The translations under genes were made by a program, and so were the position numbers. Below are positions 11,260 to 34,419 of a DNA stretch of 57,020 nt, piece by piece; position 1 is the first letter of the stretch, and each line of letters opens with the position of its first letter. Source of the DNA: Candidatus Microgenomatus sp. (GTDB lineage: Bacteria; Patescibacteriota; Microgenomatia; UBA1400; PJMF01); NCBI GenBank assembly GCA_020724725.1, contig DYGL01000002.1:1-57020 (forward strand). The letters run 5' to 3'. The notes under the pieces were generated by a model, which worked only from the letters and a program-made list of their open reading frames with translations, ran no database searches and was not told the DNA's origin.

Positions 11260-11807
11260 AAATCAATCTTTTTTAACAAAAGACGCAAAATTTTAGTTAA
11301 TATTAAGCTAGCAAAGCCAAAAAACTCCAACAGTTTTCCACATTGGTTGATACCCAAAGCAGCTTTTTTGCCGTTCTACTAAGCAGTGAAGAAAAAGACT
11401 AAATTCTAATTCTCCAGATTAAAATTGCTTTTTTACTGTGTCAGAAAGGACAGCCAAAACCCGTATTTTTAGTTTTCACTTCACATAATACACAAAAACT
11501 AAGTGAATTCACAAGTGCAAATGTTGTGGAAAAAGTAATAAATAAAAAAAGGCCAATTTCGAGATAAAAACAATTCTGATCTCTTTTGTCAGTCTTTGAT
11601 CCTTATGAAAACCCGTGAAAACTATGCAGGATTAAAATAGACATTTACTCGAGTGTGGATTTCTGAAAGTAAAAGAAAAAACCCGAAAATATCTTCCCTC
11701 TTGCCTCTTTATCTGCTGTTATCTAGACTGGTAGAAGTTAAGAAAAAGGGGCCCAAAAAACATGTCTAATGATCTGGATTAGACAAGAAAAAAAAGACTA
11801 GTCGAGC

Positions 11808-14800
11808 ATGCCTGCCAAAATACCCAAACCTACTATCTTCGCAAAGGCTACTGAAGCTAAAAACGGCTTTTTGCAGACTGTGAGTGATTTGGCCAAGCAA
11901 AATGAGGTCAAAAATGACACCGCCAAAACCCAAAAAGCAGCTCCCCATCAGCTAAATAGATCAAATAATGTCCAAGAACATCTAAAAGACTACCTTTTGG
12001 CAGTCAAACAGACCGGCTGCTCAAACTCCACAATTCGCAATTACAAGAGTGATATCAATCAATTTTTCGAATTTTGTGAAAATGAGAGCCTTGAAGAATT
12101 GAGAAGCAAACCCAAACTACTTGCTTTTGCTCACTACCAGAGGGACAAGGGCCTCAAAGAAAGTAGCATTAAACGCAAATTGGTCAGCTTGACTCAATTC
12201 AAAATTTGGCTCAAAGACCAAGGTCTACTCAATTCTGAGATCCCACTTAGTCCTTTGACCAAAAATGCACAAAAAGAACTAAATGACGAGGCTGAAAGAA
12301 AAATTATCGACAATTACTCTGCTAAGGCACTTGTTAATGAGGCGAAAGAAACACCAAATCCAGAGGAAAAAAAGACGAAAGAAAGACAAAAGCCTCGCAG
12401 TCGCTTATTTATCTTGCTTAACATCCTAGCTCTCTTCCTTTTCTTGGGAGGCTTGGCTTATTTCGCTTATCAGCAATTTGGACAAGCTATTATCTCGATG
12501 GCTTATCCTAGTACCCCTGTCGAGCCAAATCGCATCTTGTCTTATCAAGGTCGCTTGACTGACACCGCCCAAAACCCAATCTCTATCCCCACCCAGATGA
12601 CCTATTCGCTCTATGATGCCGATACTGGAGGCACCTTGCTCTGGGCTTCAAACACTTGTACCGTTGACCCAGATCAAGATGGTATTTTTAATGCCAATCT
12701 GGGAGCTGGTAGTGGCACCGGAGCTGACAATGAGAATTGTGGCGGCGCCATTGATGAGAGCGTCTTTACTGAAAATGCCAATGTTTGGCTGGAAGTAGCT
12801 GTAGGAGCGGAAACCCTTACTCCTCGCCAACCCCTACGTACCGTTGCTTATGCTGTTAATTCTTCAACCTTGCAAGGCTTACCGCCAGCTGAAATCGCCA
12901 CCAACAGCACTATCTTGATGATGAATGCTGCCGGCGAAGTTGTTCTTGGCACTGACAACCCAGTGATCAAAGCAGCGACCACCAGCTCTGGCCTGACCAT
13001 CGAAGCCAACCAAATCTTGATTCAAACCTATGCAGGATCTAATGGTGACATCATCCTCGACCCAGATGGTAGCGGCATTGTTGACATCCAAAGTGACGCT
13101 AGCGTCTCTGGAGACACCACCTTGATTGGCAACGTCTATATCTCCAGTCCTAATAGCCTAATTTTTGGTGGCACAACTGCACTAGGAGAAATTACTTCCC
13201 CAACTGACTCTGGTGCCTATCTGATTGGCGTAAATGATCAATTTACTTACTCTAATTCGACCAACGTCCAAGGTGTACTTTTTGACCTGGATGATTCAAT
13301 CAATGATCTGGTCACAGGCGCCATAGGCGTTTGGACTGACTCCGGCACTCTCACCTATCTGACTTCAACTAGTGATGATTTTGCCGTAGGTGGCAATTCT
13401 CTAGCTGGAGCTTTTTCTGTTGATGTCTCAGATAACGCAGTCAGAATTGGCTCTGGTGCCACTACTAATGCCAGCCTCAATCTTTACGCTTCTGATGGCG
13501 ACACTGGCGCCTTGACCTACACTACTGACGACGCTTTTGTCTTTAGCGGTGGCGATCTGGCTCTGGCTGCTTCTAGTTATTTGAATTGGGGCTCAACCAT
13601 CGGCTCAACTGGCTATGGCTTGCGCGACAATGCTGGCACTTTGCAATTCAAAAACTCTAGTGGCACTTGGGAAAACATTGGTTCTGGTTCTGGCAGTGGC
13701 GATTCTTTCTGGTTAGAAACAGCTGGAGCACTATATGCAGCCAACCCCACTCTGGATCTGTTGATCGGAGGGAGCGCCACAAATTCGGCTAAATTTGCTT
13801 TTACCAATATTGCTTCTGGCACACCCACCTTCTCGATGGCCAATCAAGCTTCTGCTCTAGATCTAATAGACAGCACAGTTAATGCTTTGAATATCGAGGG
13901 TGGCTTAATGTCCTTTGACACCAGTAATTCTCGAGTTGGCATTGGTACTACTACTCCAGGCGCCTTGCTCTCGCTTGCTGCTGCGACCACCAGCAATGCT
14001 CAGCTTAATTTAGCTTCATCAGGAGGAACTGATCCTAGTAGTCTGGTAACTGGTGACTTGTGGTGGGATGGTACTAGTCTGAATTTCTACGATGGTAGCA
14101 GCACCAATGACTTATTGGCTGGTGGCAGTTCCCTCTGGGTTGACGCTGGCACTTACATCTATCCAGCTGGTGGCTTACCTATAGGCAATCCCACATCTGG
14201 AGGAACTAATAAAATCAGCGGTCTCTACATGGCTGATTCTGGCCCGCTTTATTTTGGCACTGATAATGACGTTAACTTCTCTTTTACAGGTTCTACTCTT
14301 AGCACTACTCTTGGCACCAACGCTTGGAATATCGCCAATGATTTACTTTTCCTAGATGGCAGTGGCAATCGCATTGGTGTGGGCACCAATTCTCCACTGG
14401 CTACTCTAGACGTAAGAGCTCTAGATACTGATGTGGCGGTGGCCTCATTCTCTGGCTCAACCAACCTTGCAACTCTAATTATTGACCAGACAGGCTCAGG
14501 CGACCTTTTTACAGCTTCTGCTTCTGGAGTGACTCAATTCGTCATCACCAACGGTGGTAATGTTGGTATTGGCGTAGCTGATCCAACCAGCAAATTGCAG
14601 ATTGGAGGAGCTTCTTCGACCATTTCCAACAGTAGCGGTGATATCACTATAGATGCCGCCTCCAACAACATCTCTCTAGCTGGTGATAACCTGATTAACG
14701 TCGGCAATGGTCTTTTTGCTGGTTCAGTGGGCATCAATACCACTACTCCAGACAGAAGATTAGAAATTGTTGATGCTAGCAGCCCACAGTTACGTCTCAC

Positions 14801-17800
14801 ACAGACTGAAGGATCGATTTATGCAGACTTTAACATGAATTCTAATGGCGATTTGGTCATGAATGTGGATGGTATCACCAATCAATTTGTCCTTGATAAC
14901 GGTGGTAATGTTGGTATTGGCCTAAGTAATCCAGATGAAAAACTAACCGTTAATGGCTCGATTAATGCCGAAAAATACTACGACTTCACCAACAAAAACT
15001 ATTTCTTAGACCCTGCAGCTGTCTCCACTTCACTCAAAACTGCCGGTGATGCTCATGTGGGCGGCGATGTTTACGTCGAAGGTGGTGAAATTTTCTTCAC
15101 TCCAATGTCTTTCTCCACCTCAACTACTGAAGGCACTCTTTATTATGATGACGACGTTGACCATTTATACCTTTATGACGGCAATAGCACTTGGCACCGC
15201 GTGGCCCTCGACATGACTAAATACTCGACTGACGGCACCATTTCCAACCAAGATTACCTACAAATCGCTCACAATCAAAATAGTAATGACTTAACCTTTA
15301 CCGTCTGGGTGAGAGATAAAATCACCAACCTCTGGAGAAAAATCGACCCTACTAGCTCAAGTGTCGACCATGACCTGAGTAATGAATTCAATCCAGAATT
15401 TACCCAAAAAGAAAAGGTTTCAGAAATTAAACTCCAGTACAAGGAAAATAACTTAGGTACCGGCGCTGATGGCTCCATCACTATCTCTGGAACGACTAAC
15501 TTAAATACTCAATTCCCCAGTGGCAGATCTTGTGCTGATGCAGTGATGTATAGCGTCTCAAGTTTAACTAGTACCACTGCCGTACTCACTTCTTCTCCTG
15601 CTACTCCTTCATGTTTAGCTCCCAATGATGAAGTCTTACTAATTAACTTGGCTGGAGATAACACTTCGGTCACTAATGTGGGTAATTATGAAACCTTAAG
15701 AGTGGAATCTGTGGTGGGTAGTACCGTAACCTTTAAGACTGCCAAGACTAGATGGTATGGAAGAGGAGCAAGTGATGACACCGGTATCGGTACAACTGAA
15801 GGCACGCAAAGAGTAATGCTACAAAGAGTGCCTAACTACGTCAATGTAACTGTTAATAACGGTGGCTACTTGGTTCCTTCTGCTTGGAATGGTGCTACTG
15901 GAGGTGTAATGTTCTTTAGAGCCACTGGGACTGTATCTGTGGCTGGTGGTGGATATATTCACACCAATGGTATGGGATACCGAGGTGGCGGTTACTTTGG
16001 AGCTTGGTATGGTGGCGTAGGCGGTGAATCAATGTGGGCAGACAACGTCTATGGTGGTGATGGTGTTGAAGGTGGTGGCATGGGTGGCTATTACAATGCT
16101 GGAGGTGGATACACTCCATACGGTGGTGGTGGAGGTGGTGGTGGTGCCAGAGGTCATGATTCACCTGCAATTGGAGCTGGTTCTGCTGGTACTACTACAA
16201 GAGGTGGTGCCGGAGGTGGTGGAGGTGGAACACATTCTACTAACAATTCTTATCACGCTCGTGGAGGAGGTGGAGGTGGTGGAGGTGGTGGAGGTGGAGC
16301 TGGTGGAGGTGGTGTAGCTTGGGGAAACAACGGTGCTGCTGGAGGTGTGGATGCTAGTGGTAATGGTGGTAATGGTTACGCTCCAGATCATGCAGGAGGT
16401 GGTGGAGGTGGTGGTGGTGGAAGAATTACTACTCCAAATAATCTTACTCAGCTCAGATTTGGCTCTGGTGGTGGAGGTGGTGGAAACGGTGAAGTTTATC
16501 AAGTCCAATACACTGGAGGAGCTGGAGGAAGTGGTGGTGGTGTTGTGTATATTGCTGCCAACACCATTAGTAATAGCGGATATATATTAAGCAACGGAGG
16601 TGCTGGTGCAGCAGAATCTTGTCATAGTAGCAATTGGTGTGGAGGTGGTGGAGGTGGTGGAGCTGGTGGCTCAGTAAAACTTGTTGCCAACACCATGACT
16701 ATTGGAGCTAGTTTGGTACAAGCTGCTGGAGCTGGTGGTGGTGGAACCTACTGGGTTGGAGGAGCTGGAGGAAGTGGGAAGATTGCGATCTACTCTGCTG
16801 GAGCTGTTAGTGGAACAAGTTCACCCACCTATTCTCCATTAAGCTTGGAATACGCTAATTACGCCATTTTCACCTCCAAAGAAATCGCTACTCCAGATGC
16901 TACTGCTTACAACACCATTGCTTGGTCTGAAGATTTAGATACCAATGGCGAGATTCAGATTCAAACCAGATCTGGAGCAAGCTCTAATTCTACAGATGGG
17001 ACTTGGGAAGCTTGGAAGCCAGTGGTGAATGGGACGAATGAAATATCTCTAGAGAGTGCTAACAATCATGCTTCTTGGACAACTAGTACCGCTACTACTT
17101 ACGAAGGCGACATTTTACGTTATGTCAAAACTTTTGAAGATGAAAATGAAACCAATAGTGCTAATCTGACCAAAGTGGCTTTTGCTGGTAGTGGCAATGC
17201 CTACATCGAATCAACTTTCTCCAGTCAAAATCTAACAAATTACGACTATATCACTGTCTGGGTTAGAGGTAGTGCTAGTGGAGAAACCCTTAAACTTGGT
17301 ATTGGCGAAGCAGCTGGCAATGAGCAGGAAGAAACTGTTTTCATTGATCAAGCTAATGTCTGGCAAAAAGTGTACTGGGATATCACCGACATCTCCAGCG
17401 GTAGTAAAGATGCTATTACCAAACTTAGAGTTACCGGCACTACTCCAGGCACAACTTTCTATGTCGATAACGCCAAAGCAGCTCGCTATCTGACCACCAA
17501 CACTGGTTCGACAGTTTACTCTACAGCCGACGAATATTTCCAATACCGAGTCATTCTCAGTACCACCAATGTACTCAATAGTCCCAGTATTTCTCAAATC
17601 AGACTAAACCTCACTACTTCAACTAATGGCACCTTTAATATGGATGTCGACCAAGTGGGCTTGATCGATCAACAAGATAATACTGATAGTTCAATTCGCA
17701 ATAAAGAACCCATTACCCTCGACCGTCGACTCTATGACACTGGTACCGGCGCTGATGGCTCCATCACTATCTCTGGAACGACTAACTTAAATACTCAATT

Positions 17801-24368: not shown

Positions 24369-27300
24369 TGAGAAAAAAGTGGATCAAACTGCCCCGCCAG
24401 CTGCTCGCTCAAGCCAAAAAAATTGACTTAGTGGCGTGGCGTCCATATTTGTTAGGCTTAGTTGCCGTGACCTTGTTGGCCATTTTGATTGCTTGGATTC
24501 GCCAACTACCTCCCAAAGCTCCCAAATTTAAGGCTCTAGATAATGAGACTTATCAATTTCAAGCCAAAAACAAGCTTTTTAGTAGCAAACTAGGCATTAG
24601 AGAAGAAAAACCGATTGTCTCTTTTAATCTACCAAGTGGCGAAAATCTAGTTTTTTCCTATGCCGAAGCGACTGAAAACCCCAGCTTACAAAATCAGGGT
24701 GATAAAAGCTTGGTTTTCTCTCAAGTCGAAGCTGGAGTCGATTTGCGCTACGAAACACTAGCCAATGGCCTCAAGGAAGAAATCATTCTTCACCAGCCTC
24801 GCCAAAAAGATGAAGATGCTCATGTCTTTACTTTCGACAGCACTTTTCAGGGAGCTTACCCAAAGGAAATAATCGAGGGTTTCTCTGGCAGAGCTTTTTA
24901 TAATCAACAAGGTGAATATCTTTTTCACTTCGAAAAACCATTTGCTATTGATGCATCAGGCAATCGCACTGAGTCCGTAGTCTTACAAATTGAGGAAAAA
25001 AGTAGCTCAAAAATCCCAGACTTGAAGAAAAATGCACAAAATGAACTTGCCTACACTATTCGCCTAACTGTTGATGAAGCTTGGCTTAGCGATCCCGCTC
25101 GCGTCTACCCAATCATCATTGATCCAACCATCGTTCATGATGAAAGTAGTGAATTTGCAACTGGTAGTTTTGGTCGCAGCAAAGACACTGGCTCTGGCTC
25201 TTCACCAAGAATTGAAAGCTATTATCAGGAACTAACTGCCGATCCTCACACCATCGGACTTTGGCATTTCAATGAAACTAGCGGCACTCAGGCTCTAGAT
25301 AAATCAGGTAACAACAATCACGGTATTGCTAGTGGTACTACCATTGTTGATGGTTTGATAAACAAAGCTAGAAGTTTTAATGGTAGCAGTGACTATGTTG
25401 AAGTTGGCGACCTAGATATTATTGATAACACCAAAACCCTTAGCACTTGTGCCTGGGTTTATCACGACAGTGACAGCGCTGACCAAGAAATTATTGCCAA
25501 AGCTGGCACCGGCAATGATGGCTTTCTATTTTTTAGAGACGAAGTTGCTTTCATTAGTGCCAGAACTGATGTTTACACCGCCTTTGTTAGTGATTCTGCT
25601 GACGCAGACAGTACGAGAGTTGAAAGTGTCACTAACGCTGGCTTAGCTAATAGCTGGAATCACCTTTGCATGACTTTTGAAGCTGGCAAAGAACAGGGTC
25701 TAAGACTTTATATCAATGGTCAAGAAGATCCCAATAGTCCAGTGAGCACCACTACTATAGGGGCCATCGATGCTGGCAGTTATCCATTGCGCATTGGAGC
25801 TCATTCGGGAGGCGGATCAATTTTTCATGGAGAAATCGATGAGGTTATAATTTCCAATCGAGTTTTCACCGCCGAAGAAATTAAATCCATGGCCACTCGC
25901 AGTCCTTACTCTACCTACACCTCTCCGGTCATAGATCTGACCGGTGTTAATGCTTGGAACTCTTTTGCTTGGACAGAACTAGGCATCAACACTGGCAATG
26001 GCGAAACACTCAAAGACAACACCAGCTTAGTCGCTCAATGGAATCTCAATGAAACCAGTGGTACCACCGCTACCAACAACGCTGGCTCTTGCGGAGCAAG
26101 TTGCAATGGAACTTTGACTGGTTTTGACAGCACAGCTTCTCAAGATGCTGATCCAGATTCTAGCTGGACTGCCAATAATCGTCGCTGGGGTGCTGGCGCA
26201 CTAACTTTTGATGGAGTTGACACTTATGTCACTATTCCAGATCATAACTCTCTTTCTTTTGGGAGTGGCGGCACCGACTCTCCTTTTAGTATTAGCATGT
26301 GGATCAATCCACGCTCAATAGCCACAACCACTGGAGATTGGCTGATCAATAAAAGAAACGCCGATGCTTCTGATGAGTACCAGATGGTTTTAACTACTGA
26401 TGGCGGCATTTCATTTATTGTTATGTCTGGAAATGCTAATTACATCGGAAGACGTGCCTATAATTTGATTAATCCTGGCGGTTGGTATCACATCGTTGCG
26501 ACCTATGATGGCTCCAAAACAAATGCCGGAATAAAAATCTACATCAATGGCAAAAGAGCTGATTCACTGGATAACAACGTCGGTACCTACACTGGCATGT
26601 CCAATGGACCTCACCCGATTACCCTCGGCAAGCCCGGCTGGACCAGTTCGCTTTATTTTGACGGCACCATGGACGCTGTCTCAATATTTGGCCGCGAGCT
26701 CACTGCCGCCGAAATCCTCTCCAACTACCAAACAGGCAACATTGAACTGCAAACTAGAGTTGGTAGTAGCGCCAATGCTGATGATGGTACTTGGGATGCT
26801 TGGGTGCCTCTGACTAGTGAAGCTCTGCTCAAAAGCTTTGACTTAGACAGAAGTGATAACTGGCTCTACCGTCGCCAAATTCCTATCACTCACACAGGCA
26901 GTGCAGTTACCCAGTATCAAGTCTTGGTTGAGAATTTAGACACAGCAACCTTGATTAGCGCTGGCAAAATGCAAAGTGACTGCGATGATATGAGATTCAC
27001 CAACACTAGTGGCGAGCTACTTAATTACTCAATTATTGGCAACACCTGCAACACCAGCAACACTCAAGTTTGGGTACAAACTGATTCCATTCCTAGCAGT
27101 GGTGGCAACACCATCTATTTATTCTATGGCAATCCTAGCGCTCAAAAGTACTCTGACGAAAACAAGACTTTCAGTTATGCAAGCGAAAAACCTGTTGCCT
27201 ATATTCTGGACAACAGCGTTGATCAGCTAGAATTAATTTCCCTTGCCAATAACAATACCATCACTCACAACTCTGTCACTAGGTCGCTCAATAAATATGC

Positions 27301-30300
27301 TACCAGCAATTTCACTTCCATCAGTCAATTCGGAGTAATTTCTGCTAAAAAACCATTTAATGCCGATGATGCTTCTGATGATACTGATGGCATTGTGCCA
27401 ATTTCAGCTGCTGGCACTGAATTTCTTTTTACAGCTCGCAGCACTGCCACTTATACCTTCTATGCTGTTGCTCCTTGGGGCAATGCTACGGTTGATATCT
27501 ATAATGCTGGAGGCAATTGTACTGGTAATAATGTCACTAGTGCCGGTGCCACTATAAACTGCGCTACTATTGCTGCAGGCGCAGTCAGAATTACTAGTAC
27601 CGTGCCTGTGCTGATTTTTGCTGAAACCACTACCACTGATCCAATGATTCTAAGGCCGGCCTCAATGCAAAAATGGATTGGCACTGGAAATAGAATTACT
27701 TCTGGTGCAAGTGGTGCCGATTACCGTTATTACAGCTCAACTATAGCAACGGAAAACGATCCTGCTGATCTCGGTGCTAACAGCAATGCTACTTTAGCTG
27801 AAAATTCCTACGGTCATGGACCGGCATTTCTGGTTAGAAGCACAAACAACCCAATCGGCTTTAATCAATATGGCGATGGAGATGGAAGCGACGGCATTAT
27901 GCATATGACTTTGCCAGAAATGAGCTCCACTTACGGCTCAGCTGTAGGCAATACCGACTACATTTCTATTGCCTCTGACCAAGCAGCCAACTGTACTCTC
28001 TACAATGCTTCAACTAAAGCAGCGGTCAGTGCCGGTACAGCCACTTCAGCTAACAGTGCAGTTTATTTCTTGGGTTTTGGCACCGGCTCATCAAGCTCAG
28101 TTGTCGCCGCACCATGGTTTATGGAATGCTCTGCTCCAGTGGCGGCCTACTATCAAAAAGGGGCTGACTCAGAATCGGGTCTTTTTGGACCAAGCATGAT
28201 GCGCCAATTCACTTACCCTACCCCAAGCTTGGGAGCGATTGGTAGTGAAGAAAGCATTAGCTCTTATAGTGGCAATTGGATCGAAGTTGCAGCAGAAAAT
28301 CAAAAAAATCTTCAATTCACTAGCGACACTCAAATCAAGATGGAAGGCAGCGCCAGTCAAAAAATAGAACTAGGCTCAACCGCCGTTGATGAACACACCG
28401 TCGGTCTCTGGCATTTTGAAGAGACTGGTGGTAGTGGGGCTTACCTAAAAGACGCTACTGGAAACGCTAATCATGGCACTCCAACTGGAACTAGTCTGGC
28501 AAAAGGAAAAATTGGTAAAAGCAGAAGTTTTAACGGAAGCAGTGATTATGTGGTAGTACCGGCCGGATCAGGGTCAAGCTTAGACATAGATAATAATCCC
28601 GTTACAATTGAGGCATGGGTTAAACCCAACACGCTTAGTGGTGAACAACATATTGTTAGCAGAGGTCAAAGAGGAACAGCTGGTTGGGGCATAGCCATCA
28701 ACTATTCAGCTGGCTTAGCCAATGTTGGACTGCACGGAGGCAGTAATTTTAATGGAACAAGCACCTTAGTTGCTGACAACTGGTATCACATAGCTGGAGT
28801 CATTAATGGCGACAATTCAGCTCTTTATGTAAACGGCAAACTAGAAGCAACAGGGACTGTAAATGTGGTTGCTTCAGACTTAGATTTGCACATCGGCTCA
28901 TCTTGGGATGGATCTACAGAAGCATATTTTTTCGACGGCGAAATCGATGAAGTCCGCATTTCCAACATTGCTCGCTCTGCTGAAGAAATTGCCGAAAGTT
29001 ATCGTTTAGGTAGAGATCAATATTTAAATCAAACAATCTCCTCCACCAACCTTTCGGCACAAAAAACTCTTCCCTTCTATATAGCCGCCGACAAGCCGGG
29101 CTCATATCTACAAGCTACACTTGGTGAGTCAGCTTTTGCCACAGGATTACCAGATAGTAACACTGTTGGCTATTGGAAGATGGATGATGAAAATAGCTCT
29201 AGTGCCACTGGCGGAACTATCACTTATGCCAGTGGCTACACTATTCACACTTTCACTAGTTCTGGATCTTTTGTTACCAACACTCCTGTCAATGCTGAAG
29301 TTTTGGTAGTTGGAGGTGGAGGTGGTGGTGCCAACACTGGCTCTGGAGGAGGTGCAGGCGGCTATGTCTACAAACAAAGTTTTCATGTTCCAAAAGGTGG
29401 TTATCCTATCACAATTGGTGCAGGTGGTGCGGGTGGAGCTTCAACTGGAGCAGCGGGAGCCAAAGGCGGAGATTCAGTTTTTTCCTCCATAACCGCTGAG
29501 GGTGGTGGAGGTGGTGTTACTCACGGAGGCACCGCTGGTGGCAATGGTGGCTCTGGAGGTGGTGGTCCAATTAGAACTGCTGCTCCAACCGCAACCGGAG
29601 GTACTGCTTCTCAGGGCAACGTGGGTGGTGCTGGTTTTGTGCAAGCCAGTTGGACTGGTAATAGCGGCGGTGGTGGTGGTGCGGGTGGTGCAGGAGTTGC
29701 TGGCGGAAATACTGCTGGCACAGGTAATGGTGGTGTTGGTTTGGCTAATTCAATTAGTGGCGCTAGTGTCTACTATGCCGGCGGTGGAGGTGGTGGTGAG
29801 GTTAATGGTAGTTATGTTGGTGCAGGAGGAAATGGAGGTGGTGGCAGTGCAGTTTTAAATGCGGCTGGTGGTAACGGCACCGCTAATACTGGAGGTGGAG
29901 GTGCAGGAGGAAGTTATACCGGCACCTATTTTAATGGTGGCAATGGTGGTTCTGGCATTGTCATAGTCAGATATCCGACTAATACTGCTAGTTATGTAAA
30001 AGATAGTTCTGGCAATAATTTGGATGCCGCTGATAATGGATCGATTTCTAGTACTGGAAAAATAGGCAAAGGCAAATACCTCAATGGCACAAACAATACC
30101 ATTAGTGTTAAAAACAATTCTAAAATCAACATCAATGGTTCTGGCAGTGCTGCCACCATTGAAATGTGGGTTAAGCCAAACACTTTGGTGCCGAGTTGGC
30201 AAAGCATTGTATATAAAAATAGTGGTGGAAATGATGGAAGCGAAACCACTTATAGCGACCGTCAATATGCGATGTGGCTTAATAGCACAGGCTATATACA

Positions 30301-32629
30301 CTTCAATTCAACGTCAGTTAATAATATTGGCGTAGGTCAAACTACATTGAATAGTCCTGCTGGCTTGATAACTGTGGGTAAGTGGCACCACATAGTTGGA
30401 GTCATAGATAGCCCAAATAGCGTAATGAAAATTTACCTTAATGGTCAAGAAGTGGCCAGTGGCGCTTATAGTAACACTGGTATTAGATCAGGCAATGGAG
30501 ATTTGTTTTTTGGTTCTGCTCAAGCAGCTTCAAGCTTCTTCCAAGGCACCATCGACGAAGTCCGCATCTCCAACATCGCCCGTTCAGCTGATGACATTCG
30601 CCAAGCTTATGAATATGGTATGGGCTTGCGTTCTCAACCAATCAGCATCGATTTTGCAGCCAAGCTAGACAGCGCCAATCTGATTGTTGATAGCAATGAT
30701 CTTAGTTTCACCGTTGATGCTACTTATCATGGCCTGAATCAAAAAGGCAGTCAGCTCTTTACCGGTGACAAAATTATTATCAAAGAAAACTACAACGGTA
30801 CAGAATATTTAGCTCAAGGCACCGTTGCTAGTGTAAGTCAAAGCACTGGCGCTACTACAGTCAACGCTTGGGATGCTGGCGCTACTTTCCCACCCAGTGG
30901 TTTCGGTGAAAATGCTAGTGTTTTCAAATGGCAAAGAGTCTACTGGCCCATTGATAATCGCGTTTTAGACTCTCACCTAGACGCAGTCACCAAATTAAAT
31001 CTGCGCGTCACCGATGGTGCTCAGGGAAGAACCATCTGGCTTGATGAACTCAAAAGCGCAGGAGACTACATGAGCAACCCCGCTGGCACCAGCTTGACCA
31101 GCGATACTGGCAACCGCTACTTCCAATACCGCGCCATCATTAACTCTAGTGACGAATCAGTTTCACCATCTCTCAGTAGCACCACTCTCGACTACGTAGC
31201 CAATTCTATCCCCAACACCCCCACTCTCAATAGTCCAGCTGACACTGCCACCAATCAGGGTCCTACCCCTACCCTCCAAACCACAGGAACCGATGATGAT
31301 AGTGATTATCTGCGTTACAAGATTGAACTTTGTACCAATTTAGCTATGACTACTTCATGTCAAACTTTTGACCAAACAAGTAATCAGACTGGTTGGAGTG
31401 GACAAAATACACAGACAAATACTGCTTACACTAGTGGGACTCAAGCTACTTACACTCTGCAAAGTGATTTGTTACCAAATACAACATATTATTGGAGAAG
31501 TTATGCGATGGATCCAGGAGCAACCGGCATTTGGTCTAGCACCCAAGTTAACCCGCGCAGTTTCACTACTTCAGCTGCTCCCAGTTCTCCTTCTGATCTG
31601 CAAACCGAAGGCGCCACCAATCCAACTTCAGTTGGCGATCTCACCCCTGAGTTCTCTGCTATTCACAATGACAGTAATGCTGATGCAGCCACCAGCTACG
31701 AAATTGAGGTCAACACCTCCAGCGATTTTTCTGGCACCGTGATGTGGGACTCTGGTAAACAAAGCATGACTAGCACTGCCAATGGCGCTCGCTCGCCTCA
31801 AATTAGCTATGCTGGCACAGGACTTGCTTTTGATGGTTCGACTTATTATTGGAGAATCAAGTTCTGGGATAGTTTTAACTTTGAAGGTGATTGGTCGGCC
31901 ATCAACAATTTCACTATGAACACTCCTCCGGATGTTCCTGTCTTAGATTCTCCTGCCAATGCTAGTACCGGCGTCACCTTCAAACCCACCCTCCAAACCA
32001 CAGGAACCGATGATGATAGTGATTATCTGCGTTACAAGATTGAACTTTGTACCAATTTAGCTATGACTACTTCATGTCAAACTTTTGACCAAACAAGTAA
32101 TCAGACTGGTTGGAGTGGACAAAATACACAGACAAATACTGCTTACACTAGTGGGACTCAAGCTACTTACACTCTGCAAAGTGATTTGTTACCAAATACA
32201 ACATATTATTGGAGAAGTTATGCGATGGATCCAGCTGGCAGTAATACTTGGTCGGCCACACAAGGCACTCCTAGAAGCTTTACTACCCTCGCTGCCCCTC
32301 TACCTGCCAGCGCTTGCTATCTGCAAAAAAGCATCACCAACGATCAGATTTTAATTAGCTGGACCGACAACGCTAGCAATGAGGATTATTATGAAGTCCA
32401 ACGCAGTGTCAATGGCGGAGCTTGGACCACTCTGCAAAATGGTCTCTCCCCAAACACCACTAGTCTACTGGATACTGGAGTTAGTCCAGACAATACCTAT
32501 CAGTATCGCGTTGCTCCTTATTTCAATGGACCAATGTACGCTTCTTGGTGCGTAGCTAGTCAACTCAACCTTGGAGTGGGTTTATTTAGTCTAGAAGGCA
32601 TCAATGCTAGTGGTCTGCACTTCAACTAA
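24368..32629 (+). CDS. giant membrane-anchored lectin-rich surface protein (2,753 aa): four LamG domains, DUF2341, glycine-rich domain, FN3-like repeats
   Basis: The ATG overlaps the giant-1 stop (TAATG at 24366-24370), and the product has an N-terminal TM helix LLGLVAVTLLAILIAWI. Domains by position:
- LamG_3-type signatures (LWHFNETSG...GxIDEVxISN) at ~25260-25880, 26033-26720, 28408-28990 and 29995-30600.
- 26861-27150: DUF2341 pattern WLYRRQIPIT...DMRFT...VWVQ...LFYGNPSA.
- 29240-29970: glycine-rich domain.
- ~31200-32560: FN3-like repeats. Confidence 0.9.
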   Translation: MRKKWIKLPRQLLAQAKKIDLVAWRPYLLGLVAVTLLAILIAWIRQLPPKAPKFKALDNETYQFQAKNKLFSSKLGIREEKPIVSFNLPSGENLVFSYAEATENPSLQNQGDKSLVFSQVEAGVDLRYETLANGLKEEIILHQPRQKDEDAHVFTFDSTFQGAYPKEIIEGFSGRAFYNQQGEYLFHFEKPFAIDASGNRTESVVLQIEEKSSSKIPDLKKNAQNELAYTIRLTVDEAWLSDPARVYPIIIDPTIVHDESSEFATGSFGRSKDTGSGSSPRIESYYQELTADPHTIGLWHFNETSGTQALDKSGNNNHGIASGTTIVDGLINKARSFNGSSDYVEVGDLDIIDNTKTLSTCAWVYHDSDSADQEIIAKAGTGNDGFLFFRDEVAFISARTDVYTAFVSDSADADSTRVESVTNAGLANSWNHLCMTFEAGKEQGLRLYINGQEDPNSPVSTTTIGAIDAGSYPLRIGAHSGGGSIFHGEIDEVIISNRVFTAEEIKSMATRSPYSTYTSPVIDLTGVNAWNSFAWTELGINTGNGETLKDNTSLVAQWNLNETSGTTATNNAGSCGASCNGTLTGFDSTASQDADPDSSWTANNRRWGAGALTFDGVDTYVTIPDHNSLSFGSGGTDSPFSISMWINPRSIATTTGDWLINKRNADASDEYQMVLTTDGGISFIVMSGNANYIGRRAYNLINPGGWYHIVATYDGSKTNAGIKIYINGKRADSLDNNVGTYTGMSNGPHPITLGKPGWTSSLYFDGTMDAVSIFGRELTAAEILSNYQTGNIELQTRVGSSANADDGTWDAWVPLTSEALLKSFDLDRSDNWLYRRQIPITHTGSAVTQYQVLVENLDTATLISAGKMQSDCDDMRFTNTSGELLNYSIIGNTCNTSNTQVWVQTDSIPSSGGNTIYLFYGNPSAQKYSDENKTFSYASEKPVAYILDNSVDQLELISLANNNTITHNSVTRSLNKYATSNFTSISQFGVISAKKPFNADDASDDTDGIVPISAAGTEFLFTARSTATYTFYAVAPWGNATVDIYNAGGNCTGNNVTSAGATINCATIAAGAVRITSTVPVLIFAETTTTDPMILRPASMQKWIGTGNRITSGASGADYRYYSSTIATENDPADLGANSNATLAENSYGHGPAFLVRSTNNPIGFNQYGDGDGSDGIMHMTLPEMSSTYGSAVGNTDYISIASDQAANCTLYNASTKAAVSAGTATSANSAVYFLGFGTGSSSSVVAAPWFMECSAPVAAYYQKGADSESGLFGPSMMRQFTYPTPSLGAIGSEESISSYSGNWIEVAAENQKNLQFTSDTQIKMEGSASQKIELGSTAVDEHTVGLWHFEETGGSGAYLKDATGNANHGTPTGTSLAKGKIGKSRSFNGSSDYVVVPAGSGSSLDIDNNPVTIEAWVKPNTLSGEQHIVSRGQRGTAGWGIAINYSAGLANVGLHGGSNFNGTSTLVADNWYHIAGVINGDNSALYVNGKLEATGTVNVVASDLDLHIGSSWDGSTEAYFFDGEIDEVRISNIARSAEEIAESYRLGRDQYLNQTISSTNLSAQKTLPFYIAADKPGSYLQATLGESAFATGLPDSNTVGYWKMDDENSSSATGGTITYASGYTIHTFTSSGSFVTNTPVNAEVLVVGGGGGGANTGSGGGAGGYVYKQSFHVPKGGYPITIGAGGAGGASTGAAGAKGGDSVFSSITAEGGGGGVTHGGTAGGNGGSGGGGPIRTAAPTATGGTASQGNVGGAGFVQASWTGNSGGGGGAGGAGVAGGNTAGTGNGGVGLANSISGASVYYAGGGGGGEVNGSYVGAGGNGGGGSAVLNAAGGNGTANTGGGGAGGSYTGTYFNGGNGGSGIVIVRYPTNTASYVKDSSGNNLDAADNGSISSTGKIGKGKYLNGTNNTISVKNNSKININGSGSAATIEMWVKPNTLVPSWQSIVYKNSGGNDGSETTYSDRQYAMWLNSTGYIHFNSTSVNNIGVGQTTLNSPAGLITVGKWHHIVGVIDSPNSVMKIYLNGQEVASGAYSNTGIRSGNGDLFFGSAQAASSFFQGTIDEVRISNIARSADDIRQAYEYGMGLRSQPISIDFAAKLDSANLIVDSNDLSFTVDATYHGLNQKGSQLFTGDKIIIKENYNGTEYLAQGTVASVSQSTGATTVNAWDAGATFPPSGFGENASVFKWQRVYWPIDNRVLDSHLDAVTKLNLRVTDGAQGRTIWLDELKSAGDYMSNPAGTSLTSDTGNRYFQYRAIINSSDESVSPSLSSTTLDYVANSIPNTPTLNSPADTATNQGPTPTLQTTGTDDDSDYLRYKIELCTNLAMTTSCQTFDQTSNQTGWSGQNTQTNTAYTSGTQATYTLQSDLLPNTTYYWRSYAMDPGATGIWSSTQVNPRSFTTSAAPSSPSDLQTEGATNPTSVGDLTPEFSAIHNDSNADAATSYEIEVNTSSDFSGTVMWDSGKQSMTSTANGARSPQISYAGTGLAFDGSTYYWRIKFWDSFNFEGDWSAINNFTMNTPPDVPVLDSPANASTGVTFKPTLQTTGTDDDSDYLRYKIELCTNLAMTTSCQTFDQTSNQTGWSGQNTQTNTAYTSGTQATYTLQSDLLPNTTYYWRSYAMDPAGSNTWSATQGTPRSFTTLAAPLPASACYLQKSITNDQILISWTDNASNEDYYEVQRSVNGGAWTTLQNGLSPNTTSLLDTGVSPDNTYQYRVAPYFNGPMYASWCVASQLNLGVGLFSLEGINASGLHFN
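31271..32234 (+). repeat. 247-bp perfect direct repeat within FN3-like region of giant gene 2
   Basis: 31271-31517 equals 31988-32234 (offset 717, in frame). Both copies encode TLQTTGTDDDSDYLRYKIELCTNLAMTTSCQTFDQTSNQTGWSGQ...NTTYYWRSYAMDP. Alternate-frame track ORFs at 31368 and 32085 start identically. Confidence 0.9.
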
Positions 32630-32645: not shown

Positions 32646-33113
32646 TTAATCTGCGCAAATGTAATAGGTAGATGCCACAGGAGTGGTCACCTGACAAGTG
32701 TTGACGCTTTCTGTGATGTCAGCATCAGAGGCATTTTCCAGCTGAGTAGCAAGCAGGAAATCGTCACCAAAGTCAAGTTGAGCATATTCAAACTGAGTGA
32801 CATCAATCATTTTCTTCATGTAAACATCGTTGCCAACAGCAAAACTACCGTCATCGTTGGGACAATTCAAAGTTCCATCTGTTCCACAACCAACAATGTT
32901 GCCATTATCATCATCAGCTGGATAGGCTTGAAAGTCGTTGTAATACATGCGCAAGGCCACTTTGAGCTGGCGCAAGTCGTTTTTTTTGGCGCTATCACGA
33001 GCACGAGCACGCACGCCGATTAAGTTGGGAAGTAAAACCGCCACCAATACTCCTAGGACAGAAATCACCACCAACAATTCGATTAGAGTAAAAGCGTTTT
33101 TCTTTTTAGCCAT
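32646..33113 (-). CDS. type IV pilin / GspG-like pseudopilin (prepilin N-terminal methylation motif)
   Basis: Leader MAKKKNA followed by FTLIELLVVISVLGVLVAV, then the GspG-like pattern DSAKKNDLRQLKVALRMYYNDFQAYP. Confidence 0.8.
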   Translation of the reverse strand: MAKKKNAFTLIELLVVISVLGVLVAVLLPNLIGVRARARDSAKKNDLRQLKVALRMYYNDFQAYPADDDNGNIVGCGTDGTLNCPNDDGSFAVGNDVYMKKMIDVTQFEYAQLDFGDDFLLATQLENASDADITESVNTCQVTTPVASTYYICAD

Positions 33114-33120
33114 AATTTTC

Positions 33121-33669: not shown

Positions 33670-33681
33670 AAATAAATAATT

Positions 33682-34392: not shown

Positions 34393-34419
34393 CTTGTTAT
34401 CATTTAATCTTAACATAGG

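What the first reader, a model, noticed from the sequence alone, without database searches (positions are those of the whole stretch)
11808..32629. 20.8-kb two-gene locus encoding 4,186-aa and 2,753-aa membrane-anchored fibre/lectin giants: candidate uncharacterised surface-attachment system
Two ORFs joined by a TAATG overlap take up 36% of the window. Each has a single N-terminal TM anchor followed by a very large extracytoplasmic region.

The two proteins share modules:
- Glycine-rich domains.
- A segment of the form IQIQTRSG...NSTDGTWEAWKP (giant 1) and IELQTRVG...ADDGTWDAWVP (giant 2).
- A module-ending Y.QYRAI(L/I)...SP(S/T)L motif.

Giant 1 combines phage-tail-fibre-like elements (GNVGIGxxxPxxKLxV repeats, a peptidase-G2-like segment) with carbohydrate-binding-like beta-sandwich modules. 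Giant 2 carries four LamG lectin domains, a DUF2341 domain and FN3-like repeats.

The neighbourhood comprises:
- A divergent PaaX-like regulator.
- Three convergent type IV pilin genes only 16 nt beyond the giant-2 stop.
- A Wzy_C/TPR membrane protein.
- comEA and split comEC ~5-7 kb upstream, on the far side of leuS and the PaaX-like gene.

For a small-genome, probably episymbiotic bacterium, this is a plausible host-recognition and attachment apparatus. I know of no characterised system with this composition.
Basis: partly seen in the sequence, partly recalled or inferred. Interest (0 to 1): 0.85.

Follow-up and report, generated by a model that had tools for sequence, protein, structure and literature searches.

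The report
Membrane-anchored tail-fibre-like giant surface proteins
Two real, back-to-back giant genes in an ultra-small (Patescibacteria) bacterium encode a membrane-anchored, phage-tail-fibre-like surface fibre and a multi-lectin partner, at a conserved but hypervariable locus that probably sets what the cell sticks to; the fibre also carries an unexpected DNA-binding-type domain on its cytoplasmic end.

Summary
ORFs 11808-24368 (4,186 aa) and 24368-32629 (2,753 aa) exist, overlap by TAATG, and each has one N-terminal TM helix.

Giant 1 is an expanded member of an uncharacterised Patescibacteria (Microgenomates-type) family. At least 131 species genomes carry it, often misannotated "site-specific integrase". 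Its layout is:
- a cytoplasmic XerC/D-type core-binding (Phage_int_SAM) domain and a TM anchor;
- a tail-fibre-like stalk;
- three cassettes, each an unnamed ~480-aa glycine-rich module (GRM) plus a CBM-like jelly-roll;
- a phi29-gp12/Peptidase_G2-like autochaperone domain and a conserved C-terminus.

Giant 2 carries four LamG domains, DUF2341, Gly_rich_2 and Ig/FN3-like repeats.

Gene order is PaaX-like gene, fibre, 0-2 variable genes, three pilins, polytopic TPR protein, obg/M23/rho. This order recurs in dozens of genomes. The fibre's middle and the second slot are mosaic and vary between species.

Best reading: a trimeric, cell-anchored glycan-binding fibre with a lectin partner. It is analogous to the Bdellovibrio MAT fibres but is not a member of that family.

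Caveats:
- Wzy_C is not supported.
- The giants' glycine-rich domains belong to different families.
- A 1,544-bp exact internal repeat leaves cassette copy number uncertain.
- There is no expression or binding evidence.

The parts
10516..11259 (-). Divergent 247-aa gene (p247), PaaX-like (wHTH plus Cas2-like middle domain)
   Evidence: PaaX_M is sub-threshold in the window copy (E 1.2e-3). It is hit in 10 of 11 orthologues (best E 1e-5). A family profile hits PaaX 8a39 at E 0.0095. The gene is conserved upstream of the fibre gene in 16 loci.
11260..11807 (.). 548-nt intergenic region with conserved non-coding blocks. These include three AAAACCCG(T/A) repeats, CTCGAG, TCTAGACTGG, and the palindrome GTCTAAT-N7-ATTAGAC about 24 nt before the ATG.
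   Evidence: Alignments of orthologous intergenic regions. Motif enrichment: 6 in the window against 0.86 expected, 3 of them here. The only sigma70-like hit is on the minus strand. No Rfam match and no covariation.
11808..24368 (+). Giant 1: 4,186-aa membrane-anchored, tail-fibre-like protein
   Evidence: Orthologues of 3,243-3,404 aa lie complete within their loci, including one in an 853-kb complete genome; others run past 3,500 aa to the locus edge.
11970..12242 (+). Cytoplasmic XerC/D-type core-binding (Phage_int_SAM) domain, aa 55-145. No recombinase catalytic domain follows.
   Evidence: Pfam PF02899 E 4e-9. NCBIfam XerA/XerC/XerD models match through their N-terminal parts only. The domain is 74-77% identical to close orthologues, against 22-42% for the flanking tails. 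A SAM domain followed by a TM is seen in 26 of 29 family members.
12399..12470 (+). Single TM anchor (aa 198-221), N-in by the positive-inside rule
   Evidence: Kyte-Doolittle hydropathy score 2.41. The cytoplasmic part has net charge +10 and the ectodomain -202.
12471..15449 (+). Stalk (aa 222-1214) with five VGIGxxxPxxxLxV motifs. The membrane-proximal part is highly conserved.
15450..17735 (+). Cassette 1 (aa 1215-1976): glycine-rich module (GRM) plus beta-sandwich with an inserted CBM-like jelly-roll
   Evidence: The model of cassette 3 applies by homology.
17736..20054 (+). Cassette 2 (aa 1977-2749). Its GRM is nucleotide-identical to that of cassette 1 (15456-16999 = 17742-19285).
20055..22277 (+). 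Cassette 3 (aa 2750-3490), about 75% nt identity to cassettes 1 and 2 in the GRM
   Evidence: AF2 model with pLDDT 84. Foldseek matches CBM16/11/4/30 for the jelly-roll, and matches the GRM only loosely to tailspike beta-helices. The best BFVD hit is a prasinovirus PA14 protein, E 1e-22.
22278..22907 (+). CtA (aa 3491-3700): phi29 gp12 / Peptidase_G2-like autochaperone domain. Predicted autocleavage at A3511|D3512 (motif D-L-A-E).
   Evidence: pLDDT above 90 for aa 3510-3640. Foldseek hits 3gqh at E 4e-4, prob 1.0. In a profile alignment, gp12 fragment residue 1 (DFAEYF) aligns on DLAEWY, at E 0.12 only. Blast to P0063 overlaps its Pfam G2 hit.
22908..24365 (+). CtB (helical or coiled, low-confidence model) and CtC (conserved terminal beta domain ending FNWWIIQLN)
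   Evidence: CtC retrieved 131 species genomes. Weak K1-lyase_C similarity.
24368..32629 (+). Giant 2: 2,753-aa membrane-anchored multi-lectin protein. TM aa 21-48; LamG x4; DUF2341 aa 871-937; Gly_rich_2 aa 1630-1869; Ig_Rha78A_N/FN3-like repeats aa ~2290-2753 with an exact 247-bp repeat (31271-31517 = 31988-32234).
   Evidence: Positional homologues of 2,739-3,240 aa in L003, L004 and L006. N-terminal homologues in Pacebacteria, Collierbacteria and Lloydbacteria.
32646..34449 (-). Three convergent type IV pilin/pseudopilin genes (32646-33113, 33121-33669, 33682-34449)
   Evidence: N_methyl and T2SSG Pfam hits. GspG/ComG-type NCBIfam hits. Orthologues at 41-68% identity in L001 and L002. Present downstream of the fibre in 43 of 71 informative loci.
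34613..36655 (+). 680-aa polytopic membrane protein (about 10-12 TM segments) with C-terminal TPR repeats. The Wzy_C assignment is not supported.
   Evidence: Present downstream of the fibre in 52 of 71 informative loci.

Best explanation
The locus encodes surface-exposed recognition proteins of a Microgenomates-type Patescibacterium.

Giant 1. It is inserted in the membrane by one N-in signal-anchor helix. About 3,960 acidic residues lie outside the cell and a small, basic XerC/D-type core-binding domain lies inside. By analogy with phage tail fibres and tailspikes, the ectodomain folds as a trimeric fibre:
- a conserved membrane-proximal stalk with VGIG..P..L.V motifs;
- three tandem binding cassettes, each a cysteine-stapled beta domain, a glycine-rich solenoid-like module and a CBM-like jelly-roll;
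- a phi29-gp12/Peptidase_G2-type intramolecular chaperone that nucleates trimerisation.

The chaperone probably cuts itself off at A3511|D3512. That would leave the last cassette as the distal tip.

Giant 2. It is translationally coupled to giant 1 through the TAATG overlap. It is a second anchored protein displaying four LamG lectin domains, DUF2341, a Gly_rich_2 domain and Ig/FN3 spacers.

Function. Together they bind glycans or other envelope polymers on another cell or surface. Specificity evolves by cassette gain, loss and swapping and by gene conversion at a fixed chromosomal site next to pilin genes.

Shown: the ORFs, the topology signals, the domain content, family membership, synteny and mosaicism.

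Inferred: trimerisation, autocleavage, surface display, glycan binding, a role in host attachment, and any cooperation with the pilins.
For: Architecture:
- One TM per protein, a basic cytoplasmic part and an acidic ectodomain.
- The SAM-like domain is detected.
- Tail-fibre-type motifs are far above chance.
- Relatives pass Pfam thresholds for Peptidase_S74 or Peptidase_G2 at the equivalent position.
- Giant 1's own CtA domain matches the phi29 gp12 autochaperone by fold (E 4e-4, prob 1.0). The D-x-x-E motif aligns on the first residue of the released gp12 fragment.
- The CBM-like jelly-roll matches CBM16/11/4/30 (prob 1.0, TM about 0.6).
- LamG x4 (E 2e-97), with a PDB match to an S-layer-associated LamG domain.

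The GRM behaves as a tip or adhesin module:
- It forms the C-terminal part of pilin-headed proteins P0056 and P0075.
- It combines freely with LamG, DUF2341, FN3 and G2 domains.
- It is found in at least 5,294 protein clusters at E<=1e-10, many of them 3-7.7 kaa proteins.

Evolution fits a recognition protein:
- The ends are conserved (65-71% identity).
- The middle cassettes are shuffled (40-47% identity) and differ in number.
- The second slot is variable.
- Flanking housekeeping genes are 77-80% identical.

Conserved neighbourhood with pilins and the TPR protein.

Precedents: MAT fibres on Bdellovibrio (PMC10769870), giant membrane proteins in Vampirococcus (PMC8080830), and essential lectin/FN3 adhesins in Southlakia (PMC10633639).
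Against: - There are no expression, localisation or binding data.
- Giant 1 itself has no Pfam hit for G2 or S74, and the sequence-level match to gp12 is not significant on its own (E 0.12).
- The GRM has no convincing solved structural relative (TM below 0.2 to tailspikes), so its binding role is inferred from context.
- The C-terminal model is poor outside two domains (pLDDT 61), and it was predicted as a monomer.
- The conserved tip-side C-terminus is unusual for an adhesin unless it is removed.
- Synteny extends over housekeeping genes, so adjacency to pilins may be collinearity rather than function.
- The cytoplasmic core-binding domain is not explained by a pure adhesin model.
- The exact 1,544-bp repeat has no equal in relatives (331 bp or less), so the three-cassette count could be an assembly product.
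Confidence: 0.6

Rival explanations
1. Structural coat. The two proteins are components of the cell's own envelope, such as a fibrous coat or an S-layer-associated matrix. They would give spacing, protection or cell-cell cohesion rather than recognise a partner.
For: A giant 2 LamG domain matches an 'S-layer domain-containing protein' (4qvs, E 5e-7). The membrane-proximal stalk and both termini are strongly conserved. A fibrous coat attributed to giant proteins is described in Vampirococcus (PMC8080830).
Against: Middle cassettes and the second slot turn over quickly between close species. That is atypical for a purely structural layer. CBM-like and LamG lectin folds point to ligand binding.
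Confidence: 0.15
2. Enzymatic fibre. The glycine-rich modules are depolymerase or lyase-like beta-helices, as in tailspikes. The CBMs target them to polysaccharide, so the proteins would degrade host capsule or wall polymers for access or feeding.
For: Foldseek hits of the GRM region to tailspike depolymerases: CBA120 TSP4, the Klebsiella K2-2 tailspike (TSP) and KP34 depolymerase. There is a K1-lyase_C-like C-terminal similarity. CBMs are usually appended to enzymes.
Against: TM-scores are 0.1-0.2 with rmsd of 18-20 A. No hydrolase or lyase family was detected by Pfam, NCBIfam or PHROGs. No catalytic residues were identified.
Confidence: 0.1
3. Transmembrane DNA-binding protein. Giant 1 has ToxR-like topology. 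Its ectodomain would sense contact, and the cytoplasmic core-binding domain would bind DNA, either to regulate genes (for example through the conserved upstream blocks) or to tether incoming or chromosomal DNA near the competence and pilus machinery.
For: The N-terminal XerC/D-type core-binding domain is one of the best conserved parts of the protein. Some relatives carry it in tandem. A MerR-HTH head on a related anchored LamG/GRM protein (P0057) suggests a recurring design. The 548-nt upstream region has repeated and palindromic conserved motifs.
Against: No DNA binding has been shown. A core-binding domain without its catalytic partner may serve protein-protein contacts. The conserved blocks may simply be promoters or operators of the PaaX-like regulator. 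No signalling partner or cleavage route on the cytoplasmic side is evident.
Confidence: 0.1
4. Phage or tailocin remnant, or an assembly chimera. The 'giants' would be phage tail-fibre genes in a prophage, or artefacts of repeat mis-assembly.
For: Phage-like domains are present. PHROG hits exist for giant 2. The window has an exact 1,544-bp repeat, and relatives have N-gaps inside the fibre gene.
Against: The locus sits at the same chromosomal site between leuS and obg in many species-level genomes, with no other phage genes. It has a TM anchor and a cytoplasmic domain. Uninterrupted orthologues of 3,243-3,404 aa exist, including in an 853-kb complete genome. The repeat period is 2,286 nt, which is 762 codons, so frame is kept at any copy number.
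Confidence: 0.04

Closest known systems
Bdellovibrio bacteriovorus MAT (mosaic adhesive trimer) fibres (Caulton et al. 2024, PMC10769870)
   Same: Both are cell-encoded, phage-tail-fibre-like surface fibres. Both have a conserved cell-proximal end and swappable binding domains. Members with S74 chaperone/protease domains exist in both. MAT fibres have a proposed role in recognising other bacteria's surface glycans, and that paper raised interplay with type IV pili as an open question. Foldseek lists Bd2439 among the hits, at low probability.
   Different: MAT proteins have a signal peptide and an invariant ~130-aa beta-rich N-terminal domain. This family instead has a TM signal-anchor with a cytoplasmic XerC/D core-binding domain. 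Here the variable cassettes are internal, the C-terminus is conserved, the chaperone is G2-like in this copy, and sizes are 2-4 times larger. No sequence homology to MAT proteins was demonstrated.
Phage tail fibres and tailspikes with intramolecular chaperones (phi29 gp12 / Peptidase_G2, PDB 3gqh; endosialidase-type Peptidase_S74)
   Same: The G2-like fold is present, and the D-x-x-E motif aligns at the gp12 cleavage-site residue. S74 or G2 Pfam hits occur at the same position in relatives. There are beta-helix-like modules and VGIG..P..L.V stalk motifs.
   Different: These proteins are chromosomal, anchored in the cell membrane and not part of a virion. About 550 aa follow the chaperone core. 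The cytoplasmic domain has no phage counterpart.
Giant membrane proteins of CPR/Patescibacteria proposed as host-attachment factors (Vampirococcus, PMC8080830; essential lectin/FN3 adhesins of Southlakia, PMC10633639)
   Same: The same broad biological idea applies: an ultra-small episymbiont devoting a large coding fraction to anchored, lectin-rich giant proteins next to pili.
   Different: Those proteins carry other domains (WD40, PKD, integrin, VCBS, dockerin). None is reported with SAM-like/TM/tail-fibre architecture or with the GRM cassette. They come from different classes (Absconditabacteria, Saccharibacteria).
Tyrosine recombinases XerC/XerD (the source of the 'site-specific integrase' annotation)
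   Same: The N-terminal core-binding (SAM-like) domain matches.
   Different: The catalytic domain is absent. The match ends at model position ~110 of 263-300, and a TM helix follows. The annotation is wrong.
Membrane-tethered DNA-binding proteins (ToxR/CadC type; eukaryotic MYRF, which uses an S74-type domain)
   Same: The topology matches: an N-terminal cytoplasmic DNA-binding-type domain, one TM and a large extracytoplasmic part. As in MYRF, a DNA-binding-type domain co-occurs with a phage intramolecular-chaperone domain in one polypeptide.
   Different: No homology was found. In MYRF the chaperone domain lies on the same side of the membrane as the DNA-binding domain and releases it. Here it is about 3,300 residues away on the other side of the membrane, so it cannot release the cytoplasmic domain.

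Membership tests
Patescibacterial 'SAM-like / TM / tail-fibre' protein family (uncharacterised; defined here) | N-terminal Phage_int_SAM domain followed by a single TM helix | tested here: met
   Giant 1 has the SAM domain at aa 62-139 and the TM at aa 198-221. The same order is seen in 26 of 29 homologues.
Patescibacterial 'SAM-like / TM / tail-fibre' protein family (uncharacterised; defined here) | Conserved stalk start and conserved C-terminal CtB/CtC domains ending FNWWI(I/V) | tested here: met
   phmmer domain map. Identity to L003, L004 and L006 is 65-71% over aa 3159-4186. CtC patterns retrieved 131 species genomes.
Patescibacterial 'SAM-like / TM / tail-fibre' protein family (uncharacterised; defined here) | Position between a divergent PaaX-like gene and a pilin/TPR block | tested here: met
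Peptidase_G2 / phi29 gp12-type intramolecular chaperone | Domain detectable by the family profile | tested here: inconclusive
   No Pfam G2 hit in giant 1, even at E<=5. Relatives P0039 and P0063 pass the threshold or nearly do. Giant 1 aa 3511-3625 aligns to the P0063 G2 region (33% identity, E 3e-8). Foldseek to 3gqh gives E 4e-4, prob 1.0, TM 0.49.
Peptidase_G2 / phi29 gp12-type intramolecular chaperone | Acidic cleavage-site motif (Asp at P1' plus Glu three residues on; the residue roles are recalled from the gp12 literature, not checked here) | tested here: met
   D3512-L-A-E3515 aligns with DFAE at residues 1-4 of the released gp12 fragment. The motif is conserved in the family alignment A4.
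Peptidase_G2 / phi29 gp12-type intramolecular chaperone | Trimer-dependent autoproteolysis | not testable with these tools
   Needs protein expression and mutagenesis.
Bdellovibrio MAT superfamily | Signal peptide followed by the invariant ~130-aa beta-rich N-terminal domain (PMC10769870) | tested here: not met
   Giant 1 starts with a 197-aa cytoplasmic region and a signal-anchor TM. Searches gave no MAT-like N-domain signal.
Bdellovibrio MAT superfamily | Trimeric beta-helix or beta-prism stalk with variable C-terminal tip, or S74 | tested here: inconclusive
   Stalk motifs and S74 in relatives fit. The Foldseek match to Bd2439 has prob 0.3-0.44 only. The tip is conserved here, not variable.
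Tyrosine recombinase (XerC/XerD/integrase) | Catalytic domain with the R-K-H-R-H/W-Y active site | tested here: not met
   Only the core-binding domain matches. A TM helix and ectodomain follow.
LamG / concanavalin A-like lectin domain proteins (giant 2) | Laminin_G_3 profile match above threshold | tested here: met
   324 bits against a cutoff of 27.6, in four stretches.
DUF2341 proteins (giant 2) | PF10102 match above threshold | tested here: met
   50.7 bits against a cutoff of 23.4, at aa 871-937.
Type IV pilins / pseudopilins (three downstream genes) | N-terminal methylation motif plus hydrophobic helix | tested here: met
   N_methyl above threshold in all three. T2SSG in the middle one. 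One TM each.
Wzy_C / O-antigen ligase-like (TPR membrane protein) | Wzy_C profile match | tested here: not met
   No hit at E<=1 on the 480-aa membrane part. Only TPR families matched. A 'FGYGPDSYGNAY' loop is suggestive by eye only.
PaaX family regulator (p247) | wHTH plus PaaX_M (Cas2-like) plus PaaX_C | tested here: inconclusive
   PaaX_M scores 19.4 bits, below the cutoff of 24, in the window copy. It is hit in 10 of 11 orthologues (best E 1e-5). The family profile hits PaaX 8a39 over the wHTH-to-middle junction at E 0.0095. No PaaX_C.

The most novel reading that the evidence does not exclude
The fibre is more than an adhesin: it is a one-polypeptide transmembrane link between the outside surface and DNA. 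Binding at the distal cassettes would be coupled, through the single TM helix, to a conserved cytoplasmic XerC/D-type core-binding domain. That domain would bind specific DNA, for example the repeated AAAACCCG and palindromic blocks conserved upstream of its own gene, or DNA taken up by the neighbouring pilus and competence machinery. This would give ultra-small episymbionts a ToxR-like contact sensor or a DNA tether built on a phage tail fibre. The MerR-headed relative (P0057) would be a second instance of the same design.
Probability: 0.1. Interest if true: 0.85.

Novelty: new variant of a known kind. Interest (0 to 1): 0.6.

Why it matters
How uncultivated Microgenomates-type Patescibacteria recognise partners is unknown. 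Experimental work so far covers Saccharibacteria pili and a few adhesins.

This locus offers several concrete things:
- A conserved chromosomal address in more than 100 species. A fast-evolving, cassette-built fibre and a swappable lectin gene sit there next to pilin genes, making it a handle for predicting and comparing host or ligand specificity from metagenomes.
- A large uncurated domain family, the ~480-aa glycine-rich module, found in thousands of protein clusters. It has no Pfam model and no solved structure.
- A correction to a recurrent misannotation ('site-specific integrase').
- An unexplained, well-conserved DNA-binding-type domain on the cytoplasmic end of a surface fibre.

It also extends the theme of bacteria re-using phage tail-fibre architecture, known from Bdellovibrio, to a monoderm-like ultra-small lineage with a different anchoring solution.

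Tried and rejected
- A whole giant 1 homology search timed out. I split the protein instead.
- PDB sequence search with whole giant 1 gave nothing usable.
- Pfam, PHROGs and NCBIfam on giant 1 segments gave only the SAM domain, weak phrog_6185, a far-sub-threshold AgmC_N hit and weak K1-lyase_C.
- The 13-sequence CtC alignment was too divergent for a locus scan. A 5-sequence subset worked.
- Wzy_C in the TPR protein is rejected.
- 'Same glycine-rich domain in both giants' is rejected. hhalign finds only a 21-column terminal match.
- A polyglycine-II (ALK or gp38-like) fold for the GRM is my own lead and was not supported.
- A MYRF-like release of the DNA-binding domain by the chaperone domain was considered and rejected on topology. 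The two domains lie on opposite sides of the membrane.
- A structured leader RNA or riboswitch upstream of giant 1 was checked. There is no Rfam hit at E<=1 and no compensatory pairs.
- Prophage origin is rejected on conserved non-phage context.
- Eight literature searches found no description of this family.
- The record title of L004 (CP011212.1, 'TM6 ... 28_16') and the 'Pseudomonadales/Gammaproteobacteria' titles of many MAG records conflict with locus GC (41.6% for L004) and gene content. I did not rely on them for taxonomy.

Full report
**1. Observation**

The two ORFs are exactly where stated: 11808..24368 (4,186 aa) and 24368..32629 (2,753 aa), both on the + strand. They are joined by cttaacTAATGaga. 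No other frame holds a comparable ORF.

Hydropathy finds one strong TM segment in each protein. In giant 1 it is aa 198-221, preceded by KKTKERQKPRSR. In giant 2 it is aa 21-48.

- Giant 1 aa 1852-1934, 2612-2691 and 3370-3476 match giant 2 aa 2188-2275, E down to 2e-10.
- Giant 1 aa 1714-1750 and 2476-2514 match giant 2 aa 790-825, 51% identity.

Pfam on giant 2 gives Laminin_G_3 x4 (E 2e-97), DUF2341, Gly_rich_2 and Ig_Rha78A_N plus weak FN3-type hits.

Neighbours are as described (leuS, comEA, split comEC, three N_methyl pilins, a TPR membrane protein), with two exceptions:
- No Wzy_C signal exists.
- 'PaaX-like' is sub-threshold in the window copy. It becomes credible only at family level.

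**2.

- The only Pfam hit is an N-terminal Phage_int_SAM_1 domain (aa 62-139, E 4e-9). NCBIfam XerA, XerC and XerD models match through their N-terminal ~110 positions only. So 197 cytoplasmic residues carry a recombinase core-binding domain without a catalytic domain, and the TM helix follows.
- The protein contains three tandem cassettes of about 760 aa.
- Cassettes 1 and 2 share an exact 1,544-bp stretch, 15456-16999 = 17742-19285. Their second halves are diverged. Cassette 3 is about 75% identical.
- Giant 2 has an exact 247-bp repeat in its Ig/FN3 region.

**3. Family and taxonomy**

The first 1,210 aa retrieve 45 proteins of 680-2,110 aa. Those that carry a source name are, with one Calescibacterium-labelled exception, from Pacebacteria, Woesebacteria, Levybacteria or generic Patescibacteria MAGs. 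Several are named 'site-specific integrase, partial'.

A segment map shows a common scaffold: SAM-like domain, TM, stalk, variable middle, CtA/CtB/CtC. Giant 1 is this scaffold with three cassettes inserted. In 26 of 29 members a TM follows the SAM domain.

Relatives pass Pfam thresholds for Peptidase_S74 or Peptidase_G2 just before CtB/CtC.

A scan of one genome per species with the C-terminal domain found 131 relatives. At least 19 of the 80 retrieved loci carry fibre ORFs longer than 3,200 aa. These include a 3,296-aa orthologue in an 853-kb complete genome. Giant size is therefore normal in part of the family, and the ORFs are not an assembly fantasy.

**4. Synteny**

The gene order is: comEC/comEA/leuS, p247 (-), fibre (+), 0-2 variable genes (+), three pilins (-), TPR (+), obg, LysM-M23, rho (-). 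This order was seen in L001 and L002 and recurs widely.

Of 71 loci with at least 3 kb downstream:
- 52 have the TPR protein.
- 43 have pilins.
- 12 have a LamG-type protein longer than 1,000 aa in the second slot.

These are lower bounds, because detection used single-sequence queries.

Close relatives L003, L004 and L006 have a positional homologue of giant 2 (2,739-3,240 aa). L002 has only a 382-aa protein matching giant 2's C-terminal repeats. L001 has two unrelated small genes.

Identity to L001 is 77-80% for leuS and obg, 59-69% for the pilins and p247, 54% for TPR, and about 47% for the fibre ends with the middle replaced.

Against L003, L004 and L006, the giant 1 ends are 65-71% identical. 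The cassettes match at 40-47%, in different numbers and orders. Giant 2 shows the same mosaic pattern.

Because housekeeping genes are collinear too, linkage is compatible with functional coupling to the pilins but does not prove it.

**5. Structure-based evidence**

Cassette 3 was modelled with a 28-sequence alignment and gave pLDDT 84.
- Against the PDB, the inserted jelly-roll matches CBM16, CBM11, CBM4 and CBM30 (prob 1.0, target TM about 0.5-0.6).
- The glycine-rich module (GRM) aligns only loosely to tailspike beta-helices, with TM below 0.2.
- Against predicted viral structures, the best match is a prasinovirus PA14-domain protein (E 1e-22), followed by giant-virus 'collagen-like' proteins.

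The GRM has invariant Cys, Asp and Arg positions in its N-terminal subdomain and no Pfam model. A profile search finds 9,732, 5,294 and 1,198 cluster representatives at E<=1e-3, 1e-10 and 1e-30. Many are 3,000-7,700-aa multi-copy proteins. The E<=1e-3 count may be inflated by glycine bias.

The GRM occurs at the C-terminal part of pilin-headed proteins (P0056, P0075). It also occurs with DUF2341/FN3 (P0058, P0060, P0061), with G2 (P0063), and behind a MerR-type HTH head (P0057).

The C-terminal 696 aa model is poor overall (pLDDT 61). It is confident for aa 3510-3640 and for the last ~85 residues. Foldseek returns the phi29 gp12 C-terminal fragment (3gqh, E 4e-4, prob 1.0), phage capsid decoration proteins, K1-lyase C-termini and, weakly, the Bdellovibrio Bd2439 fibre.

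A family profile aligns residue 1 of the released gp12 fragment (DFAEYF...IIGVISE) onto D3512-LAEWY...LVGVIST. This match is E 0.12 on its own. Blast links the segment to the Pfam-G2 region of P0063.

Taken together, I accept 'G2-like intramolecular chaperone' as likely and predict cleavage at A3511|D3512.

**6. Mechanism**

I propose an N-in anchored, trimeric, tail-fibre-like protein.
- Its conserved base sits at the membrane.
- Its internal cassettes (GRM plus CBM-like) bind surface polymers.
- Its conserved C-terminal block is an assembly chaperone that is probably removed. That would explain why the 'tip' is conserved while the adjoining cassettes vary.

Giant 2 is translationally coupled and adds LamG lectin valency. 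Specificity would evolve by cassette duplication, conversion and exchange. The identical GRM halves of cassettes 1 and 2, next to diverged CBM halves, look like gene conversion if they are real.

Steps shown are the sequence features, homology, fold similarity, synteny and mosaicism. Steps inferred are trimerisation, cleavage, display, ligand type and a host-attachment role.

**7. The cytoplasmic domain**

The SAM-like domain is 74-77% identical to close orthologues, as conserved as housekeeping proteins. Its flanking tails are only 22-42% identical. Some relatives carry it in tandem. The cytoplasmic part has net charge +10, against -202 for the ectodomain.

A pure adhesin model does not explain this. 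The topology resembles ToxR-type membrane-bound DNA-binding proteins. I rate a signalling or DNA-tethering role at about 10%.

A MYRF-like release mechanism is excluded, because the chaperone domain lies on the other side of the membrane.

**8. Comparison with known systems**

The closest functional analogue is the MAT fibre superfamily of Bdellovibrio (PMC10769870). Those are phage-like trimeric fibres on a predator's surface, with S74 and non-S74 members and swappable glycan-binding tips. This family fails MAT membership at the defining N-terminal domain and signal peptide.

The general idea that CPR bacteria use giant anchored proteins for host attachment is already published (PMC8080830, PMC10633639). 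I found no paper describing this family, the GRM, or the locus. The held library is not exhaustive.

Verdict: this is a new variant of a known kind.

**9. Caveats**

- The 1,544-bp exact repeat far exceeds any in relatives (331 bp or less).
- Relatives show N-gaps inside the gene, so this region is hard to assemble.
- Copy number may be wrong. The frame is preserved because the period is 2,286 nt, which is 762 codons.
- Structure models are monomeric.
- Many MAG record titles are taxonomically unreliable.

**10. Side finding**

The 548-nt region upstream of giant 1 carries blocks that are nearly invariant across species whose proteins are 35-75% identical. They include three AAAACCCG(T/A) repeats, CTCGAG, TCTAGACTGG and a perfect GTCTAAT-N7-ATTAGAC palindrome about 24 nt before the ATG. 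There is no Rfam match and no covariation. These blocks are probably promoter or operator DNA, possibly for the PaaX-like protein. This is unresolved.

Noticed in passing
window 11260-11807: The 548-nt intergenic region between the PaaX-like gene and giant 1 has blocks that are nearly invariant across orthologous loci whose proteins are only 35-75% identical. One is an ~80-nt block around CTTCACATAATACA, which holds the only sigma70-like hit, on the minus strand. Others are three AAAACCCG(T/A) repeats (6 in the window against 0.86 expected), CTCGAG, TCTAGACTGG, and a perfect palindrome GTCTAAT-N7-ATTAGAC at 11764-11784. There is no Rfam hit and no compensatory pairs. This looks like protein-binding DNA, but it is unexplained.
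   Followed up: partly
window 15456-16999 and 17742-19285; 31271-31517 and 31988-32234: Exact internal duplications of 1,544 bp (in giant 1) and 247 bp (in giant 2). The 1,544-bp copy covers only the glycine-rich half of cassettes 1 and 2, and the following CBM-like halves are diverged. This means either recent gene conversion or an assembly or polishing artefact. Relatives show exact repeats of 331 bp or less, and several have N-gaps inside the fibre gene.
   Followed up: partly
window 41564-43708 (+) and 52919-53800 (+): A VirD4/TraG-type type IV secretion coupling protein (TrwB_AAD_bind, TraG-D_C) and a protein with a T4SS_pilin domain. These are components of the Patescibacteria T4SS, in the same window as the fibre locus.
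   Followed up: no
P0057 (homologue, 1,276 aa): A related anchored surface protein has an N-terminal MerR-type HTH instead of the SAM-like domain, followed by a hydrophobic segment and then LamG and the glycine-rich module. This is a second case of a DNA-binding-type head on an extracellular lectin or fibre protein in Patescibacteria.
   Followed up: no
P0056 and P0075 (homologues): These proteins have a prepilin N-terminal methylation motif followed directly by one or two copies of the glycine-rich module. The module may therefore be displayed on type IV pilus-like filaments in some Patescibacteria.
   Followed up: no
L055-L060, L065, L068, L069, L073, L078, L081 (Shapirobacteria/Woesebacteria-type loci): In these lineages the fibre gene is followed, directly or after one intervening gene, by a separate 370-490-aa gene that contains only the conserved C-terminal (CtC) domain. 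This is a stand-alone paralogue of the fibre's terminal domain.
   Followed up: no
L004 = CP011212.1 and many 'uncultured Pseudomonadales/Gammaproteobacteria' MAG records: Record titles conflict with content. L004 is titled 'TM6 ... GWF2_28_16', but the locus has 41.6% GC and Pacebacteria-type synteny. Dozens of MAG records titled Pseudomonadales or Gammaproteobacteria carry the same Patescibacteria locus. These are probably mislabelled records.
   Followed up: no
window 34613-36655: The conserved TPR protein has about 10-12 TM segments and a loop 'LFGYGPDSYGNAY' that recalls O-antigen-ligase or pilin-glycosylase motifs. It gives no Wzy_C profile hit. Its role next to three pilin genes (pilus biogenesis or pilin glycosylation?) is open.
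   Followed up: partly
window 24368-32629: Giant 2 matches two PHROG families of unknown function strongly: phrog_2295 (E 2e-61 over aa 1042-1895) and phrog_3545 (E 3e-54). Similar LamG and glycine-rich architectures are therefore encoded by phages.
   Followed up: no
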